DNA from: Naegleria gruberi
Taxonomy: Eukaryota
Strand: one strand, 5' to 3'
Assembly: GCA_000004985.1 (NCBI GenBank)
Contig: GG738870.1
Length of the DNA stretch: 64,000 bases
Position numbers and translations under genes: made by a program. The notes under the pieces were generated by a model, which saw only the letters and a program-made list of their open reading frames with translations, did no database searches and was not told where the DNA came from. Position 1 is the stretch's first letter. Every line of letters begins with the position of its first letter. Below, in pieces: positions 4,549-57,538 of this stretch.

Positions 4549-4619
4549 AGGGAGATAGTTCAGTGGTAGAACATGGGATTGTGGTTCCTAAGATCAGGGT
4601 TCGATTCCCTGTCTTCCTA
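4549..4619 (+). tRNA. tRNA-His (anticodon GUG), 71 nt, no intron
   Basis: Cloverleaf folds by hand: acceptor AGGGAGA/TCTTCCT with 2 G-U pairs, D-arm GTTC-AGTGGTA-GAAC, anticodon arm TGGGA-TTGTGGT-TCCTA (U33, GUG, G37), T-arm CAGGG-TTCGATT-CCCTG, discriminator A. A T5 run follows. Confidence 0.8.
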
Positions 4620-4889
4620 CACCTTTTTGACTTTTACTTATTCTAGAATTAAGCCTGTTTATGTAGGAGTTTACAGTATTTAAGAGACAAGAAATAATTT
4701 CAAACTCTGGTTACCAGCTTTTATTTATTTAATTATACGAAATAACAATGAATTTCCTCTCCTTCCCATTCCTCTCCAAAAACTTCCTTTGTTCTGAATC
4801 AACAATAATCCACTTCAAAATCAAATACAGCATTATTCCACTTTCGATCATAGTCCAAAAGTTCAAATACACCAAAATAGTAATGGCGT

Positions 4890-16213: not shown

Positions 16214-16286
16214 GCCCGTCTAGCTCAGTCGGTAGAGCGCAAGGCTCTTAACCTTGTGGTCGTGGGTTCGACCCCCACGGTGGGCG
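16214..16286 (+). tRNA. tRNA-Lys (anticodon CUU), 73 nt
   Basis: Acceptor GCCCGTC/GGTGGGC, D-arm GCTC-AGTCGGTA-GAGC, anticodon loop CTCTTAA, T-arm GTGGG-TTCGACC-CCCAC. A T-rich terminator follows. Confidence 0.9.
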
Positions 16287-18592: not shown

Positions 18593-18624
18593 AGTAAATA
18601 ATCAAAATTAAAAGTTAAAAGGTG

Positions 18625-18695
18625 TAGGAAGACAGGGAATCGAACCCTGATCTTAGGAACCACAATCCCATGTTCTACCACTGAACTATCTCCCT
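18625..18695 (-). tRNA. tRNA-His (GUG), second copy, identical to 4549..4619 but inverted
   Basis: It is the exact reverse complement of the first copy. The 3' flank ACACCTTTT(T/A)… is also conserved. Confidence 0.8.
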
Positions 18696-42533: not shown

Positions 42534-43997
42534 CTAATTGGTTGGTATTTCTGTAGTTTTTCCAAACAAGGCCAATAAAATACATCCTGGCACTAAAAGC
42601 ACCAAAACACTTATAAAGAATTGAAGAATTGCCTTCCATCCTCTTAATTCTCTGAAAAATACTAATCCACATATTCCTGTAATGACCATTGCTGTTTCAG
42701 TAAGTGGCATACCAATGGTCAATCCAAGTGGAGAAACTGAAACATAATAGGCAAAGAAATTTCCAGTTTGCCACAAGAATGCTGTTAATGCAGGAAATAT
42801 TGAAAGTTTGAGATGGAATGGAACTCTCTTTTTAAATCTAATCAAGTAATAAACGTAGTAAACAATTAAAATTGCTGTTGTAATGACAAACGATCCAATT
42901 CCAAAGGCGACCATATAGACAAGTCCTGTATCTTCATCTAAACGAGATGGTACGAACATACTTCCACCAGTTATTCCACATAATACCGAGGCTACTAATC
43001 CAATGAAATATCGTTTAGAATTTTTCAAAATCTTGATAAACTTTTGAGATTTGGTTTCATAAACTCCAATTGTTGATTCAATCTCTGATAATTCAGAATA
43101 TAGTGTTGGATCATTCACAGAAGGATAAATAGGAACATCACTACTAATATTCTCCTGTTGATTTGTGGAATTTTCTTGTTGATAAAGTGGTGTTGTTTCA
43201 GTATTATTTTCCTGTCCAGACTCTTCAACACTTGCATTGATTGAAGTTTCAGATTGTTTTTCAGCAACAGGTTCTGGATTATTCCACTTACTGCAAGTGG
43301 CAGTTCCAAAAATACCAATAATCATAATAACCAATCCAAAAACAGTCAAATAAATATTTCCAATTTTAGATTGAAACAATGTAACACCCCAAATGAAATT
43401 GGTAATAATCACACAACCGGCCCAAGTTGATTGAGCAACAGCAGCTCCAAGATACTCCACAGCCACAATGGAAAACAATGAAGAAGGAACCCAAATTCCA
43501 CTTCCTGCCACAGCCCACCAACTCCATTTAAACTCATTCCAAGCTAGAACAATTAAACTCATCAATCCAACCACAAGAGAAAAGTAAAATTGAAATACAA
43601 TCGGATCAAATTCAACATTTCTAACCCATTTAACTTTCATCGGCAAGACAAAAGTTCCCCATGTCAAAATACTGAAATGTGTCATCAATAATGATAATGA
43701 TGATACCTACCAAACAGAAACTCCAACCCATCCAAACCATTCCGGAACCTTATCTCCACCATTCGTTCCATTAGTATTATTATTGGAATTATTTTGCAAA
43801 AGTGTGTAGGATGAAATTTCATTAATTATTGATGGGATGGGATAGAGAGAATTTAGCATCGGAGGAAATGCACTCATCACTGATGATGACGCTTGTTGCG
43901 TTATTGGTGGTGCAACCATAATGATGTGAGACAAAAGTTGTCGTGTATTTTTTTTGTTAAAATTCCCAAGAATCTGGGAGGATTCTGCTTTATTCAA
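42534..43997 (-). CDS. 10-TM transporter-like membrane protein (DMT-superfamily/TMEM144-like guess), probably with a short 5' exon
   Basis: The 384-aa core ORF is 42534..43688. The upstream ORF 43707..43997 is in the same frame, separated by one TAG. A candidate 39-nt intron (GTAGGT…TTTCAG, 43689..43727) would remove it. Confidence 0.5.
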
Positions 43998-44214: not shown

Positions 44215-46126
44215 ATGGCCTCATCACCAACGAGAATTTTTGAAGCCTACGAGATGGTAAGCTATATTGGTGAAATTGAGAACCAACGCACACAATCAAT
44301 ACAAGAACTTGTACCTCTAAAATCAAAAGATCATAACATTTACCTTATGAACGACAGATATGAAATTGATTGTTTCCCTATCGATTATTCTATTCATATT
44401 AAAACGCATCCATTCAAATTTTCCCAACTAAAGAACTCCTCTGAAGCAGATATTTGGAAATTGATCAAGAGGATTGCTCTTCAACAAAGTATATTTAAAG
44501 GTAGATTTATTGGTTTGAAAGGAAAAGACGGCAAGGTTAAAACTGTATCCGAATTTAAGGCTTTTATAGATCAAGTTGATATTCAGACAGATTTAAAGTT
44601 CGTTATTGTTAAAGAGAGGTTTGAGAATGTATTTTCTACCATTGAATCAAGGCTAAACCAATTAAATTCCTTAGAAAGGAACACTTGTTCTATTATCACC
44701 CTGGCAAAGGACGCTTCCTTTAACTCAAGTGCATTGGAAGGGAATATTCACAGCAACAAAGGACGAATTTGAGGCATCCGAAAGTGAGGATGAAGATTCA
44801 CTCACTCCTGATACTAAAGAAATACGAGTACTGAGAAAGATGCATGAAAGATTCCAAACCGATATAATTAATGGAAAGGTTTATACACTCGATGAAGAGC
44901 TACTGTTGACAGAACACAAAGAAATGGCCATTGGTCTTGGAGAGGGTGCAGGAAGATTCAGAAGTGTAAATGTTTATGTTAAAGGATCTTCCCACAAGTT
45001 TGCACCTTATGATACAATAAGAAGCAAGTTGGCATCTGTTTTAATGATTTTCTACTCCAAAATCACCAGCGCCAATTCGTTGGAAGAACGAATTAAGGCT
45101 GCAATTTACATCCATTATGAAATTGTTAACATTCACCCATTCAGAGATTACAACGGAAGAATGGCAAGATATATCATGAACTTAGTTTTATTTCAGTATT
45201 GTAGAATTCCTCCGGTATCAATATTGCCAGGAATTAAGGATGAATACTTTGCTTCTGTTCGCGAAGTTGATAAGAATAATGATTATAGATTTATTACTAC
45301 CATCATTACAGAATCAATTATTAGGTCTATCGAAAAAGCATTTTATTATACTCACATACAGGATGGAATGGGACTATTGTTGAATAGATTTACATTGGAT
45401 CAGCTTGCAGAATATTGTAAATCTAACAACATTACCACTGACGAAAGTTCCAAGTCTAAAATGATAAGAGATATTTTGAGACTCTCTAATAGAATTGGAG
45501 AATTTGCTTTTGTGTTGGAGTTGGAAAAACAAGATTTACAATCAATAGTTCTGGACAATAATCTATCCACTTTTTCTCAATTGCAAACATGTTTAATAGA
45601 GATTTTATTTTCTAATCCAAACACCAACCTGAAACAATTTCTCAATTTATTCAACACTGAAGGTTTAGACAGATTCTTGGAATTATTAAGAATGAAAGAT
45701 GAGTCCTCTAAGGAAGGAAAAATTACAGCTATCATGGAAGAAGTATTAATATTAGGTATGAGAATCGGATTTGGTAATATGAAGGAAGAGAACATCTCTT
45801 CTTTATGCAATGAACTGAAGATCTCTTCATTTGGTTCCAAACTTGAAAACATTCATTCAATGTTTGGTGTTATTTATCCTCATTACTCTAGATTTAAACA
45901 TTTATTATTTAAAGAATACATTTGGGATATTAAGAAAGGTATTTCTTTGGAACAATTATATCAATTTCATTACTATGACTTACTCGTTTATGCAAAAAAA
46001 CAACAATTGAATTTAAAACATAAATCCAAGAAGAGCATTTGTAAGAATATTTTAACCAGTGGTCATATTAAGAGACTTAATGAGAATGACGATTTGTTGC
46101 AAAATCTCAAGAAAAAGAAGTTATAA
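44215..46126 (+). CDS. Fic (filamentation induced by cAMP) domain protein, class-II layout (N-terminal inhibitory helix then Fic core), interrupted by a +1 frame change at about 44745
   Basis: The canonical Fic motif HPFRDYNGRMAR lies at 45134..45169 in the 465-aa ORF. The inhibitory-helix motif SSALEGN (44725..44745) is encoded at the end of the upstream 185-aa ORF in a different frame, about 130 aa upstream, as in FICD. No intron-sized GT-AG interval fits. Confidence 0.65.
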
Positions 46127-46255: not shown

Positions 46256-46344
46256 GGGTGGTTAGCTCAGCGGTAGAGCACCGGATTGCAAAGTTATTTG
46301 CAGCAGACATCCGATGGTCACGTGTTCGATCCACGTACCACCCT
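46256..46344 (+). tRNA. tRNA-Cys (GCA) with intron, second copy; identical to 39618..39706 but inverted
   Basis: The copy is identical across the mature tRNA and the intron. About 40 nt of 5' flank are also nearly identical. Confidence 0.75.
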
Positions 46345-46739: not shown

Positions 46740-47710
46740 ATGCAATCTCCACAATTCTGGCTTCAAGATGTCAAACCAAAATGGTTACCTGAAGGTTTCC
46801 AAGTTGTAAGTATTGTTGACTTCTTGATTCTTATTAACATTGAAAAGCCAACTGAAATGATGGATCAAATTGAACAATTAACTCAAGAAGCACAGAATGC
46901 CTATTATTCTGTAGATAAAGAACGTAATGGATTCTTGAGAAGAAGAGAATTCAAGAAGGCAATGAAGAAATTGGGTATTAACAAGTTTGAAGCAAAGTAA
47001 GTTTATTTGTGGTATTTTGATTCATCCAAATCTAAAGACATATGTTAATCTTGGTTGATCAAGAACGTCTCAAGGTTGTTAGCATTAAGAACTATGTCAA
47101 TGCCTACTTGTTTATTAAGAGTGGTGGTTTGAATCATGAACACACTGATTATCAAGGTCCAATTACAACTGGTGTTGACAAGAGAGAGCACTTACTCAAA
47201 AATCAATCCCAATTAATCAAAGTTGACTTTAAAACTTTCGTTAACAATCAAGGAACAGCCAACGTTTCAGCAGCATTCATTACCCAAAATGGTTTCACAA
47301 GAATTCCACGTGGTATTTTCATTTGGTTAATAGTCAACTTGAAGAATGCAGCCACTGGCATGTTCTTATGTTCTGAGAATGGAAAAATTGTTGCCAATCG
47401 TCCAGCTGCTGGCACTTGGGAAACTTTCACATTTTACAACCATACCGATTGGGCAGATAGTTTCCTTCGTGCCTTTAAAACAGTTTGGAACACTTACTTG
47501 TGTTGTGAAGATACTAATATCCTCGTTGATAATAGAGCTAACATTGGAGATTGGGAAAAGTTTGAAGCTTTCCCATGTCCTGGTGGTTATTATTTCAAAT
47601 CTTGGACAGGAAAGTATATTTCTGGTGATGCTTCTGGAAATGTTTCAATGGCAAACTCTGTTGGTCTAAATGAAGCATGGGATATTACAATTCTTGGATC
47701 ATATCCATAG
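46740..47710 (+). CDS. EF-hand plus beta-trefoil (fascin/hisactophilin-like) domain protein. It has two exons, 46740..46996 and 47038..47710.
   Basis: The intron is 46997..47037 (GTAAGT…TCTAAAG, 41 nt) and joins …NKFEA|K|HMLILVDQ… in frame. Exon 1 has an EF-hand loop (DKERNGFLRRREF). Exon 2 has three WE-x-F trefoil repeats (TWETFTF, IGDWEKFEAF, EAWDITI). Confidence 0.65.
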
Positions 47711-56985: not shown

Positions 56986-57059
56986 GCAGCGATAGATCAG
57001 TTGGTTAGATCGTAAGCCTAACACGCTTAAGGTCGCGGGTTCAAGCCCCGCTCGCTGTA
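56986..57059 (+). tRNA. tRNA-Val (anticodon AAC, presumably I34), 74 nt
   Basis: Acceptor GCAGCGA/TCGCTGT (G1-U72), D-arm GATC-AGTTGGTTA-GATC, anticodon loop CTAACAC, T-arm GCGGG-TTCAAGC-CCCGC, discriminator A. Confidence 0.8.
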
Positions 57060-57428
57060 TCATTTTGTTACACAATGTTAAATCTTTGAACTTGTTTAAA
57101 TTAAAGAACTTTGAATTGTTAGGTTTTACTTTGACAAACTTTATTTTATGAAATTTGTTGAAATAAAAACGCAAAGAAGATGGTGCATTTTTAGATACTA
57201 ATTGTAAGACAAAGCATGATAGAGGACACATATGGTGCTCTTCTCTTGTGAGCTAAACTCGCTGGTGTAATTTGTAGGCATCCTTGAGGATTTGGAAGTA
57301 ATAGCTTGGTCTATTATTAACACCCTTCACATTCCTAGCGTGGCTGTGAATCAAAGTTGGGTTTTATTGGAAATGTTGATTAGGTATTAAGTACCCAAAC
57401 AAAAGGTGTTGGTGAACTAAAAACGTAA

Positions 57429-57517
57429 GGCGGCTTAGCACAGTGGCAGTGCATCAGTCTTGTAGACAGAAATGCTGAGATAACTGAGGGTCGAGGGTTC
57501 AATTCCCTCAGTCGCCT
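57429..57517 (+). tRNA. Intron-containing tRNA, most likely tRNA-Thr (UGU), 89 nt with a ~17-nt intron after position 37
   Basis: Acceptor GGCGGCT/AGTCGCC, D-arm GCAC-AGTGGCA-GTGC. The anticodon stem is TCAGT/ACTGA with loop CTTGTA|intron|A. T-arm GAGGG-TTCAATT-CCCTC. A T4 run follows. The anticodon assignment depends on intron placement; Tyr(GUA) was considered and is less consistent. Confidence 0.6.
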
Positions 57518-57538
57518 TTTGTTAATTGATAATCAAGT

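What the first reader, a model, noticed from the sequence alone, without database searches (positions are those of the whole stretch)
44215..46126. Eukaryotic class-II Fic-domain (AMPylase-like) gene split by a +1 frame change between the inhibitory helix and the Fic core
The ORF 44729..46126 has a canonical Fic active-site motif HPFRDYNGRMAR at 45134..45169. The upstream ORF 44215..44772, in another frame, ends with SSALEGN (44725..44745). That matches the [S/T]xxxE[G/N] auto-inhibitory helix about 130 aa before the Fic His, the same spacing as metazoan FICD. The frames differ by 1 nt right after the EGN codons. The only GT-AG interval that would fix this is 25 nt and would delete the motif. 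Fic proteins are sparse in eukaryotes outside animals. The apparent frameshift is either a pseudogenisation or an assembly error in an otherwise intact gene.
Basis: seen in the sequence. Interest (0 to 1): 0.6.

Follow-up and report, generated by a model that had tools for sequence, protein, structure and literature searches.

The report
Frameshifted Fic enzyme gene in Naegleria
A Naegleria gruberi gene for a self-inhibited Fic (AMP-transferring) enzyme fused to a SAP-like tail is broken in two by a 4-base insertion right after its inhibitory motif; it is most likely a very young pseudogene or null allele, less likely a sequence error.

Summary
The window is Naegleria gruberi. ORF 44215..44772 ends in SSALEGN. 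ORF 44729..46126, in the next frame, carries a Pfam Fic domain (52 bits) and HPFRDYNGRMAR.

The two ORFs match the N- and C-terminal halves of intact 340-385 aa Fic proteins from uncultured eukaryotes. Joined, they align across the break to human FICD by sequence and by predicted fold.

A 629-nt metagenomic relative (78% nt identity) and all ten intact family members aligned across the break read through it in one frame. Against them the window has four extra bases (ATTC, 44746-44749). With the preceding GAAT these form the palindrome GAATATTC.

No canonical intron, frameshift signal or RNA structure rescues the frame. dN/dS against the relative is 0.21, and both window ORFs have no other lesion, so the break is young. 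The relative has two frame breaks of its own.

Best reading: a recent inactivating insertion in a class-II Fic gene whose C-terminus is a diverged copy of a Naegleria SAP-domain protein. A consensus error or an allele-specific lesion cannot be excluded without reads.

This is ordinary biology with a useful annotation fix: the public 428-aa model omits the inhibitory helix. Interest is low to moderate.

The parts
44215..44772 (+). ORF1 (185 aa, frame 1). It holds a low-confidence N-terminus, the family-specific N-terminal domain ('SIFKGRFIGL') and the inhibitory helix. It stops at TGA 44770-44772, eight codons after EGN.
   Evidence: Matches P0002 residues 38-147 (E 1e-8). 69% aa identity to relative L001. 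dN/dS 0.21.
44725..44745 (+). Inhibitory-helix motif SSALEGN ([S/T]xxxE[G/N]; S171...E175-G-N in the repaired protein).
   Evidence: The column is nearly invariant (S171, E175, G176) in alignment A1. It aligns to FICD 'TVAIEGN'.
44746..44749 (+). The lesion: four extra bases, ATTC (placement ambiguous by one base; TTCA at 44747-44750 is equally parsimonious). They shift the reading frame by +1.
   Evidence: Nucleotide alignment with L001. None of the 10 intact family members aligned across this point has a gap here. Removing 44746-44749 gives one 635-codon ORF.
44742..44749 (.). 8-nt palindrome GAATATTC, formed by the insertion and the four bases before it.
   Evidence: Reading it as a repair or excision footprint is inference only.
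44750..46126 (+). Continuation of the gene in frame 2 (TATKDEF...), holding the Fic core and the SAP-like tail. Stop is TAA 46124-46126.
44840..46126 (+). Public gene model (P0001, 428 aa, 'predicted protein [Naegleria gruberi]'). It starts at the first ATG of frame 2 and lacks the inhibitory helix.
44888..45190 (+). Pfam Fic domain (PF02661), ORF2 residues 54-154.
   Evidence: E 1.1e-13, 52.2 bits, cut-off 24.
45134..45169 (+). Fic signature motif HPFRDYNGRMAR (catalytic His; Y replaces the usual first G).
45377..46054 (+). C-terminal region paralogous to the N. gruberi SAP DNA-binding domain protein XP_002680558.1. It is too diverged to reach the Pfam SAP threshold.
   Evidence: 36% identity over 233 aa, E 4e-36. 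(SAP domain at 212-253 of the paralogue; none called in the window copy)..

Best explanation
This locus was a single gene for a Fic-family enzyme of about 635 aa with intramolecular auto-inhibition (class II type). Its parts, in order, are a family-specific N-terminal domain, an inhibitory helix carrying S171xxxE175GN, a Fic catalytic core with His306, and a C-terminal module copied from a Naegleria SAP-domain (DNA/chromatin-binding type) protein.

In the sequenced N. gruberi DNA a 4-base insertion (ATTC, 44746-44749) directly after the EGN codons shifts the frame. Translation from the normal start therefore ends eight codons later (TGA 44770-44772). The Fic core and SAP-like tail are no longer made from that start. 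The locus is therefore most likely a very young unitary pseudogene or null allele.

Shown here:
- common origin of the two ORFs;
- position and size of the lesion;
- absence of a rescuing intron or recoding signal;
- past purifying selection;
- youth of the lesion.

Inferred:
- that the insertion is in the DNA and not only in the consensus;
- that the intact protein was an AMP-transferase held off by Glu175 (the mechanism established for class I-III Fic proteins, PMC3667792);
- that the SAP-like tail tethered it to DNA or chromatin.
For: Organism and model: P0001, N. gruberi, 100% identical.

Fic identity: Pfam Fic at 52 bits.

Colinear halves: ORF1 matches P0002 residues 38-147 and the match ends at EGN (E 1e-8); ORF2 matches residues 187-341 (E 2e-26). 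The joined protein gives single-stretch hits across the break to intact 339-385 aa proteins and to FICD.

Fold: the AF2 model of the repaired protein has pLDDT above 90 from about residue 160 to 380, including the junction. The best PDB folds are human FICD (E 1e-9, TM 0.5-0.64).

Lesion: relative L001 reads ...SSVMEGNAVTKDQFEASKSE in one frame. The window has four extra bases there. The ten intact family members aligned across this point show no gap. A 4-base insertion is an unlikely base-calling slip.

No rescue: there is no GT donor between EGN and the stop. Every frame-restoring GT-AG or GC-AG interval deletes the motif or conserved residues that follow it. The N. gruberi mean intron is 203 bp (PMC8296547). 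Local RNA folding has z -0.95.

Selection and age: dN 0.17, dS 0.80, omega 0.21 over 121 codons. 5.9% of possible substitutions in ORF2 would create a stop, yet there is none in 465 codons. My estimate from this is under about 0.035 neutral substitutions per site since the break.

Decay in the clade: L001 has two frame breaks of its own plus an in-frame stop. No other close relative turned up in the protein searches, though one search also missed the known 69%-identical P0008.
Against: No reads, traces or transcripts could be inspected, so a consensus error or a heterozygous intact allele is not excluded.

Both ORFs are otherwise flawless. That is also what an intact gene with a sequence error, or a still-functional split gene, would look like.

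The call of a 4-nt insertion rests on one 629-nt metagenomic relative plus the family register. A real 3-nt insertion combined with a 1-nt error would look the same.

L001 is a short-read metagenome contig of unknown quality, so its own frame breaks could be artefacts.
Confidence: 0.6

Rival explanations
1. Sequence or assembly artefact, or an allele-specific lesion. The organism has an intact, continuous gene of about 635 aa (on at least one haplotype), and the extra bases are a consensus error or come from one haplotype only.
For: Apart from this one point the 636-codon reading frame is perfect, with no stops or other indels. The N-terminal part has evolved under purifying selection (omega 0.21). 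The repaired protein folds with high confidence across the junction.
Against: The discrepancy is 4 bases, not 1. That is unusual for a consensus error in a Sanger shotgun assembly (that the assembly is Sanger is from my own knowledge). The close relative L001 also carries disruptions, which suggests the gene is dispensable in this clade. No independent N. gruberi sequence of the locus was found.
Confidence: 0.2
2. Real lesion, but the split locus still functions. ORF2 would be expressed from Met 44840 (the annotated 428-aa model) as a Fic-SAP enzyme without its inhibitory helix. ORF1 (185 aa, ending just after the EGN motif) might act as a separate inhibitor. This would be a eukaryotic mimic of bacterial class I Fic toxin/antitoxin pairs.
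For: Both ORFs are intact. ORF1 ends 8 codons after the inhibitory motif and overlaps ORF2 by 44 nt, which resembles the layout of an antitoxin encoded upstream of the Fic gene (PMC3667792). The Fic core from Met38 onward contains the whole Pfam domain.
Against: The split is not conserved. L001 and all ten intact homologues aligned across this point are continuous there. Intactness is equally explained by the youth of the lesion. Eukaryotic mRNAs are normally monocistronic, and reinitiation after a 185-codon ORF is inefficient (general knowledge). Removing or mutating the inhibitory helix makes Fic enzymes hyperactive and harmful to growth (PMC3667792), so a free ORF2 product would probably be selected against. 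No expression data are available.
Confidence: 0.12
3. The frame is restored at the RNA or translation level, either by a 25-nt micro-intron (44729..44753) or by programmed +1 ribosomal frameshifting near ATT-C or at ATT-TGA.
For: Removing the 25-nt GT..AG interval restores the frame. The GT and AG are also present in L001, where the interval is 21 nt and in frame.
Against: Splicing there would delete ALEGNIH, which is the conserved inhibitory motif. 25 = 21 + the 4-nt insertion, so the frame restoration follows from an ancestral spacing divisible by three, which has a 1-in-3 chance. The donor GTGCAT is unlike the GTAAGT seen at likely introns nearby. The N. gruberi mean intron is 203 bp. There is no known slippery motif and no stimulatory structure (z -0.95). 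The relative needs no recoding at this site.
Confidence: 0.03

Closest known systems
Class II Fic proteins (N-terminal intramolecular inhibitory helix; e.g. SoFic of Shewanella, human FICD/HYPE)
   Same: The [S/T]xxxE[G/N] motif lies about 131 residues upstream of the Fic His. The Fic signature and fold are present. FICD is the best sequence match (E 3e-11) and the best fold match.
   Different: As assembled, the helix and the core are in different reading frames. The signature has Y in place of the first G. The N-terminal domain ('SIHKGKFLG' family) and the SAP-like tail are not found in SoFic or FICD.
Metazoan FICD/HYPE (ER-anchored BiP AMPylase/deAMPylase)
   Same: Fic core plus inhibitory helix, with nearly the same Glu-His spacing. 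About 250 residues superpose at roughly 3 A.
   Different: Pfam finds no TPR repeats. The N-terminus is not hydrophobic, and the first 66 residues are low-confidence in the model. There is an extra C-terminal SAP-like module. Sequence identity is only about 21%. It is not an orthologue.
Uncultured-eukaryote 'fido' proteins P0002, P0004-P0007, P0009, P0011 (339-385 aa)
   Same: The same N-terminal domain, inhibitory motif and Fic core are colinear over about 300 residues at 27-32% identity (E 8e-28 to 1e-15). These are the true family of the window gene.
   Different: They are intact single ORFs. They end after the Fic core with no SAP-like tail. Most have HPFxDGNGR. The three examined (P0009, P0151, P0004) lie on contigs with eukaryote-type neighbours: an ATR-type kinase, a Ulp1-type peptidase and DUF4116 repeat proteins.
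Class I Fic toxin-antitoxin modules (VbhA/VbhT, FicA/FicT)
   Same: As assembled, a small upstream ORF carries the inhibitory motif and overlaps a downstream Fic ORF.
   Different: The arrangement arose from a recent frameshift of a fused gene and is not conserved in relatives. It sits in a eukaryotic nuclear context with no operon.
N. gruberi SAP DNA-binding domain-containing protein XP_002680558.1
   Same: The C-terminal 233 aa of ORF2 are 36% identical to it (E 4e-36).
   Different: The window copy is fused to a Fic domain and no longer reaches the Pfam SAP threshold.
Coxiella burnetii Fic protein 2 (DNA-binding-induced (de)AMPylation of histone H3, PMC10628234)
   Same: A Fic enzyme coupled to DNA binding. 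It is a functional analogy for a Fic + SAP-like fusion. It appears in the fold hits (8cil).
   Different: It is a bacterial effector with a different DNA-binding element. The analogy was not tested here.

Membership tests
Fic/Fido superfamily (Pfam PF02661) | Profile match above the curated threshold | tested here: met
   E 1.1e-13, 52.2 bits against a cut-off of 24.
Fic/Fido superfamily (AMPylating subset) | Signature HxFx(D/E)GNGRxxR (PMC3667792) | tested here: inconclusive
   HPFRDYNGRMAR keeps H, F, D, N, G, R and R but has Y for the first G. Y recurs in 4 of 147 homologue motifs. The effect on catalysis is unknown.
Fic/Fido superfamily | Fic fold | tested here: met
   AF2 model pLDDT is above 90 over residues 160-380. 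Foldseek hits FICD and bacterial Fic structures with probability 1.00.
Class II Fic | [S/T]xxxE[G/N] inhibitory motif N-terminal to the Fic core | tested here: met
   SSALEGN at 44725-44745, 131 residues before His. It aligns with the FICD and family motifs.
Class II Fic | Inhibitory helix and Fic core on one polypeptide | tested here: not met
   As assembled they are in frames 1 and 2, separated by a 4-nt insertion. The feature is met only after repair.
Class II Fic | Inhibitory Glu reaches the second Arg of the signature in the active site | not testable with these tools
Only the confidence and secondary-structure summary are returned.
Metazoan FICD/HYPE | N-terminal membrane anchor and two TPR motifs before the Fic domain | tested here: not met
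   No TPR family at E up to 1. The N-terminus MASSPTRIFEAYEM... is not hydrophobic. Residues 1-66 are low-confidence.
Class I Fic toxin-antitoxin | Separate inhibitor gene conserved upstream of the Fic gene | tested here: not met
   The ORFs are separate only in this assembly. The relative L001 and the 10 intact homologues aligned across the break are fused at this point.
Programmed +1 ribosomal frameshift | Conserved shift site with a slippery or stop-codon motif and a stimulator | tested here: not met
   The site is not shared by L001. No recognised motif was seen by inspection. RNA folding has z -0.95.
Spliceosomal intron | GT-AG interval of plausible size whose removal preserves conserved residues | tested here: not met
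   All frame-restoring intervals remove the EGN motif or the conserved residues after it. The 25-nt candidate is far below the 203-bp mean.
SAP domain proteins | Pfam SAP (PF02037) match | tested here: not met
   No SAP hit in the window C-terminus at E up to 1. The paralogue P0152 has it. Homology to P0152 itself is clear.

The most novel reading that the evidence does not exclude
The frameshift did not kill the gene. Instead it turned a eukaryotic class-II Fic enzyme into a two-polypeptide, class-I-like system: a free N-terminal inhibitor, and an uninhibited Fic-SAP enzyme made from the internal Met at 44840. A related version would be a rare 25-nt splice that removes the inhibitory motif and restores the frame at once, acting as an activation switch. 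Either would be a caught-in-the-act example of interconversion between Fic regulatory classes in a eukaryote.
Probability: 0.07. Interest if true: 0.6.

Novelty: new member of a known kind. Interest (0 to 1): 0.25.

Why it matters
Three modest points.

1. Annotation. The public N. gruberi model (428 aa) hides that this Fic protein has, or recently had, an inhibitory helix and a family-specific N-terminal domain. Anyone classifying eukaryotic Fic proteins from that model would misclassify it.

2. Distribution. The gene belongs to a clade of class-II-type Fic proteins. Three of its intact members were found on eukaryote-type metagenomic contigs. The clade is distinct from metazoan FICD, which adds to the 'sporadic' eukaryotic distribution described in the literature (PMC4454073).

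3. Architecture. The Fic + SAP-like fusion suggests an AMP-transferase tethered to DNA or chromatin. No other hit in the exhaustive search showed this fusion.

The frameshift itself is ordinary gene decay (or an error) and opens no long-standing question.

Tried and rejected
- Exact-product look-ups for P0001 and ORF1 in public assemblies found nothing on record. No independent N. gruberi copy of the locus was obtained.
- ORF1 alone against PDB gave no hit. Its homology only shows against the metagenomic family.
- Word-indexed protein searches returned only P0001 and one distant hit. They even missed the known 69%-identical P0008. Their silence on N. fowleri or N. lovaniensis orthologues is therefore weak evidence.
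- A metagenome scan with the protein and another with a junction DNA pattern both found nothing.
- The AFDB fold library was unavailable.
- Literature searches for 'Naegleria' + 'Fic domain' and for PRJEB11402 gave no papers. The N. gruberi genome paper is not held.
- The intron hypothesis was rejected after enumerating all GT/GC-AG intervals.
- The programmed-frameshift hypothesis was rejected: no structure and no conservation of the shift.
- Weak Rfam hits near the locus (sR35 at 21 bits, SECIS_5 at 26 bits) are far below their gathering scores and were treated as chance.
- No paralogue of the gene lies in the window.

Full report
**Identity of the window.** The downstream ORF is 100% identical to 'predicted protein [Naegleria gruberi]' (P0001, 428 aa, Pfam Fic). 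The window's G+C of about 33% matches the 33% reported for N. gruberi NEG-M (PMC8296547).

**Observation.** ORF1 (44215..44772, frame 1, 185 aa) ends ...DASFNSSALEGNIHSNKGRI*. ORF2 (listed as 44729..46126; frame 2 is open from 44675; 465 codons) reads ...GIFTATKDEFEASESEDEDS... and continues to TAA at 46124-46126. 44725..44745 encodes SSALEGN and 45134..45169 encodes HPFRDYNGRMAR. ORF2 matches Pfam Fic at E 1.1e-13, 52.2 bits, against a cut-off of 24. At local composition, open frames of 465 and 185 codons have probabilities of about 1e-17 and 2e-7. The alternative frames hold 11-48 stops.

**The two ORFs are halves of one gene.**
- An exhaustive HMMER search with the joined protein found 2234 proteins at E up to 0.001. 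The best non-self hits are intact proteins of 339-385 aa (P0002, P0004-P0007, P0009). Each aligns in a single stretch from about query residue 46-77 to about 351-379, straight across the break (E 8e-28 to 4e-19).
- ORF1 alone aligns to P0002 residues 38-147, ending exactly at EGN (E 1e-8). ORF2 aligns to P0002 residues 187-341 (E 2e-26).
- The family shares the N-terminal block 'SIHKGKFLG' (window: SIFKGRFIGL) and the motif [ST]S[ND]xxEG[NTS].
- The joined protein aligns to human FICD over residues 122-363, with 'SSALEGN' opposite 'TVAIEGN' (E 3e-11). ORF1 alone finds nothing in PDB.
- An AlphaFold2 model of the repaired residues 1-391, built with 55 sequences, has mean pLDDT 79 and pTM 0.77. 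pLDDT is above 90 from about residue 160 to 380, including the repaired junction. Residues 1-66 are low-confidence.
- Its nearest solved folds are human FICD structures (E about 1e-9, TM 0.5-0.64, about 255 columns, rmsd about 3 A). Bacterial class II Fic proteins follow.

**Nature of the lesion.**
- One hit, P0008 (82 aa), led to a 629-nt ENA metagenome contig (L001). L001 is 78% identical in nucleotides and about 69% in amino acids to window 44390-44790.
- At the break L001 reads in one frame...DASFNSSVMEGN-AVTKDQFEASKSE. The window reads GAA GGG AAT [ATTC] ACA GCA ACA AAG GAC..., so its T-A-T-K-D-E-F lines up with L001's A-V-T-K-D-Q-F. The window therefore has four extra bases.
- All ten intact family members aligned across this point have EG[NTS]-x-x-... 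with no gap there.
- Deleting 44746-44749 yields one ORF of 635 codons plus stop, with E175 and H306 131 residues apart.
- The inserted ATTC is the reverse complement of the preceding GAAT, giving the palindrome GAATATTC at 44742-44749. This looks like a snap-back or hairpin-type repair footprint. Placement of the insertion is ambiguous by one base and chance is roughly 1%, so I treat it as a curiosity.

**Can the frame be rescued?**
- I enumerated all GT/GC...AG intervals of length 3n+1 that give an open joined frame.
- No GT donor lies between EGN and the frame-1 stop. The only donors downstream of EGN are non-canonical GC sites, and these remove the conserved residues that follow the motif.
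- The same GT and AG exist in L001 as a 21-nt in-frame interval. So 25 = 21 + 4, and the frame restoration has no independent weight.
- The donor GTGCAT differs from the GTAAGT seen at likely introns nearby. The N. gruberi mean intron length is 203 bp.
- RNA folding of 44740-44860 is unremarkable (z -0.95). I saw no known +1 slippery motif. The relative needs no recoding at this site.

**Selective history.**
- Over 121 unambiguously aligned codons between the window and L001, dN = 0.17, dS = 0.80 and omega = 0.21. Differences by codon position are 22/18/40. The gene was under purifying selection for most of the divergence.
- In ORF2, 5.9% of possible single-base changes would create a stop, yet none is present in 465 codons. 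By my estimate, more than about 0.035 neutral substitutions per site since the break would leave under 5% chance of this. The lesion is young relative to dS 0.8.
- L001 has two frame breaks of its own relative to window ORF1: +2 nt near L001 228 and -8 nt near L001 500. One of these gives an in-frame TAA at 538-540. If these are real, the gene is decaying independently in a sister lineage. That fits a dispensable gene and raises the prior that the N. gruberi lesion is real.
- No other close relative, such as one from N. fowleri or N. lovaniensis, appeared. The word-indexed tool also missed the known P0008, so this is weak evidence.

**What the intact protein would be.**
- The inhibitory motif N-terminal to the core places it in class II as defined by Engel et al. 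and Goepfert et al. In that class the conserved Glu out-competes the ATP gamma-phosphate for the second Arg of the signature and keeps AMP transfer off (PMC3667792).
- The signature has Y for the first G. This variant recurs in 4 of 147 homologue motifs. It is not a sign of decay, but by the literature's criterion it could mean an altered activity.
- It is not an FICD orthologue: Pfam finds no TPR and the N-terminus is not hydrophobic.
- The last ~230 residues are 36% identical to the N. gruberi SAP DNA-binding domain protein XP_002680558.1 (E 4e-36). No other Fic hit extends into this region, so the Fic-SAP-like fusion looks lineage-specific.
- A DNA- or chromatin-tethered AMP-transferase is an inference. 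The Coxiella Fic enzyme whose activity is induced by DNA binding and targets histone H3 (PMC10628234) is an analogy only.

**Family context.** Three of the nearest intact homologues lie on eukaryote-type contigs:
- L005, next to an ATR-type kinase (UME/FAT/PI3K/FATC);
- L006, next to a Ulp1-type C48 peptidase and an RRM protein;
- L002, among DUF4116-repeat proteins, at 45% G+C.

So this is a protist Fic clade, not a fresh bacterial import into Naegleria. The literature calls eukaryotic Fic 'sporadic' with several independent groups (PMC4454073).

**Verdict.**
- Real, recent 4-nt insertion giving a young pseudogene or null allele: about 0.6.
- Consensus error or allele-specific lesion with an intact gene: about 0.2.
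- Real lesion with the split still functional, class-I-like or as an uninhibited ORF2 product: about 0.12. The main arguments against are the lack of conservation of the split and the known harm of uninhibited Fic enzymes.
- Splicing or recoding: about 0.03.

None of these can be settled without reads or transcripts, and the tools could not supply them.

Noticed in passing
window 46256..46344 (+): tRNA-Cys(GCA) gene with a 17-nt intron, 130 nt downstream of the Fic gene. Rfam finds it (54.7 bits) and so does ARAGORN with the intron option. The default ARAGORN run missed it.
   Followed up: yes
window 45377..46054 (+): The C-terminal ~230 aa of ORF2 are a diverged paralogue (36% identity, E 4e-36) of the N. 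gruberi SAP DNA-binding domain protein XP_002680558.1. This makes a Fic + SAP-like fusion that no other hit in the exhaustive protein search showed.
   Followed up: partly
window 44742..44749: The inserted ATTC plus the preceding GAAT form the perfect palindrome GAATATTC. This resembles a hairpin or snap-back repair or excision footprint. It could be chance (about 1%), and the placement is ambiguous by one base.
   Followed up: no
L001 1..629 (ENA ERZ929261, run ERR1078381, contig k127_35856): The closest relative (78% nt identity) is continuous at the window's break. It has two frame breaks of its own (+2 nt near 228, -8 nt near 500) and an in-frame TAA at 538-540. Together the two shifts return it to the original frame. 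It is either a pseudogene or a contig with errors.
   Followed up: partly
L005 2181..3212; L006 8001..9074; L002 7770..8927: Intact family members (P0151, P0004, P0009) lie on compact contigs with eukaryote-type neighbours: an ATR-type kinase, a Ulp1-type C48 peptidase, an RRM protein and DUF4116-repeat proteins. They share an uncharacterised N-terminal domain ('SIHKGKFLG') that matches no Pfam family.
   Followed up: partly
window 44840..46126 (+): The public model P0001 starts at the first ATG of frame 2. It therefore omits the inhibitory helix and the N-terminal domain, which gives a misleading picture of this Fic protein's class.
   Followed up: yes
window 45149..45151 (+): The Fic signature has Y where the consensus has G (HPFRDYNGR). 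The same variant occurs in three unrelated intact homologues (P0056, P0071, P0142), so it may mark a functional subtype.
   Followed up: partly
window 4549..4620, 16214..16286, 18624..18695, 56986..57059, 57428..57518: Five further tRNA genes are in the window (His x2, Lys, Val, Thr). The Thr gene is 91 nt long and may also contain an intron.
   Followed up: no
window 46740..47710 (+): An EF-hand-like ORF (46740..47000) and a DUF7910-like ORF (47042..47710) are separated by a stretch that begins GTAAGT at 46998. They are probably two exons of one gene.
   Followed up: no
window 42534..43688 (-): The upstream neighbour is a TMEM144-family transporter (Pfam E 1e-13).
   Followed up: no
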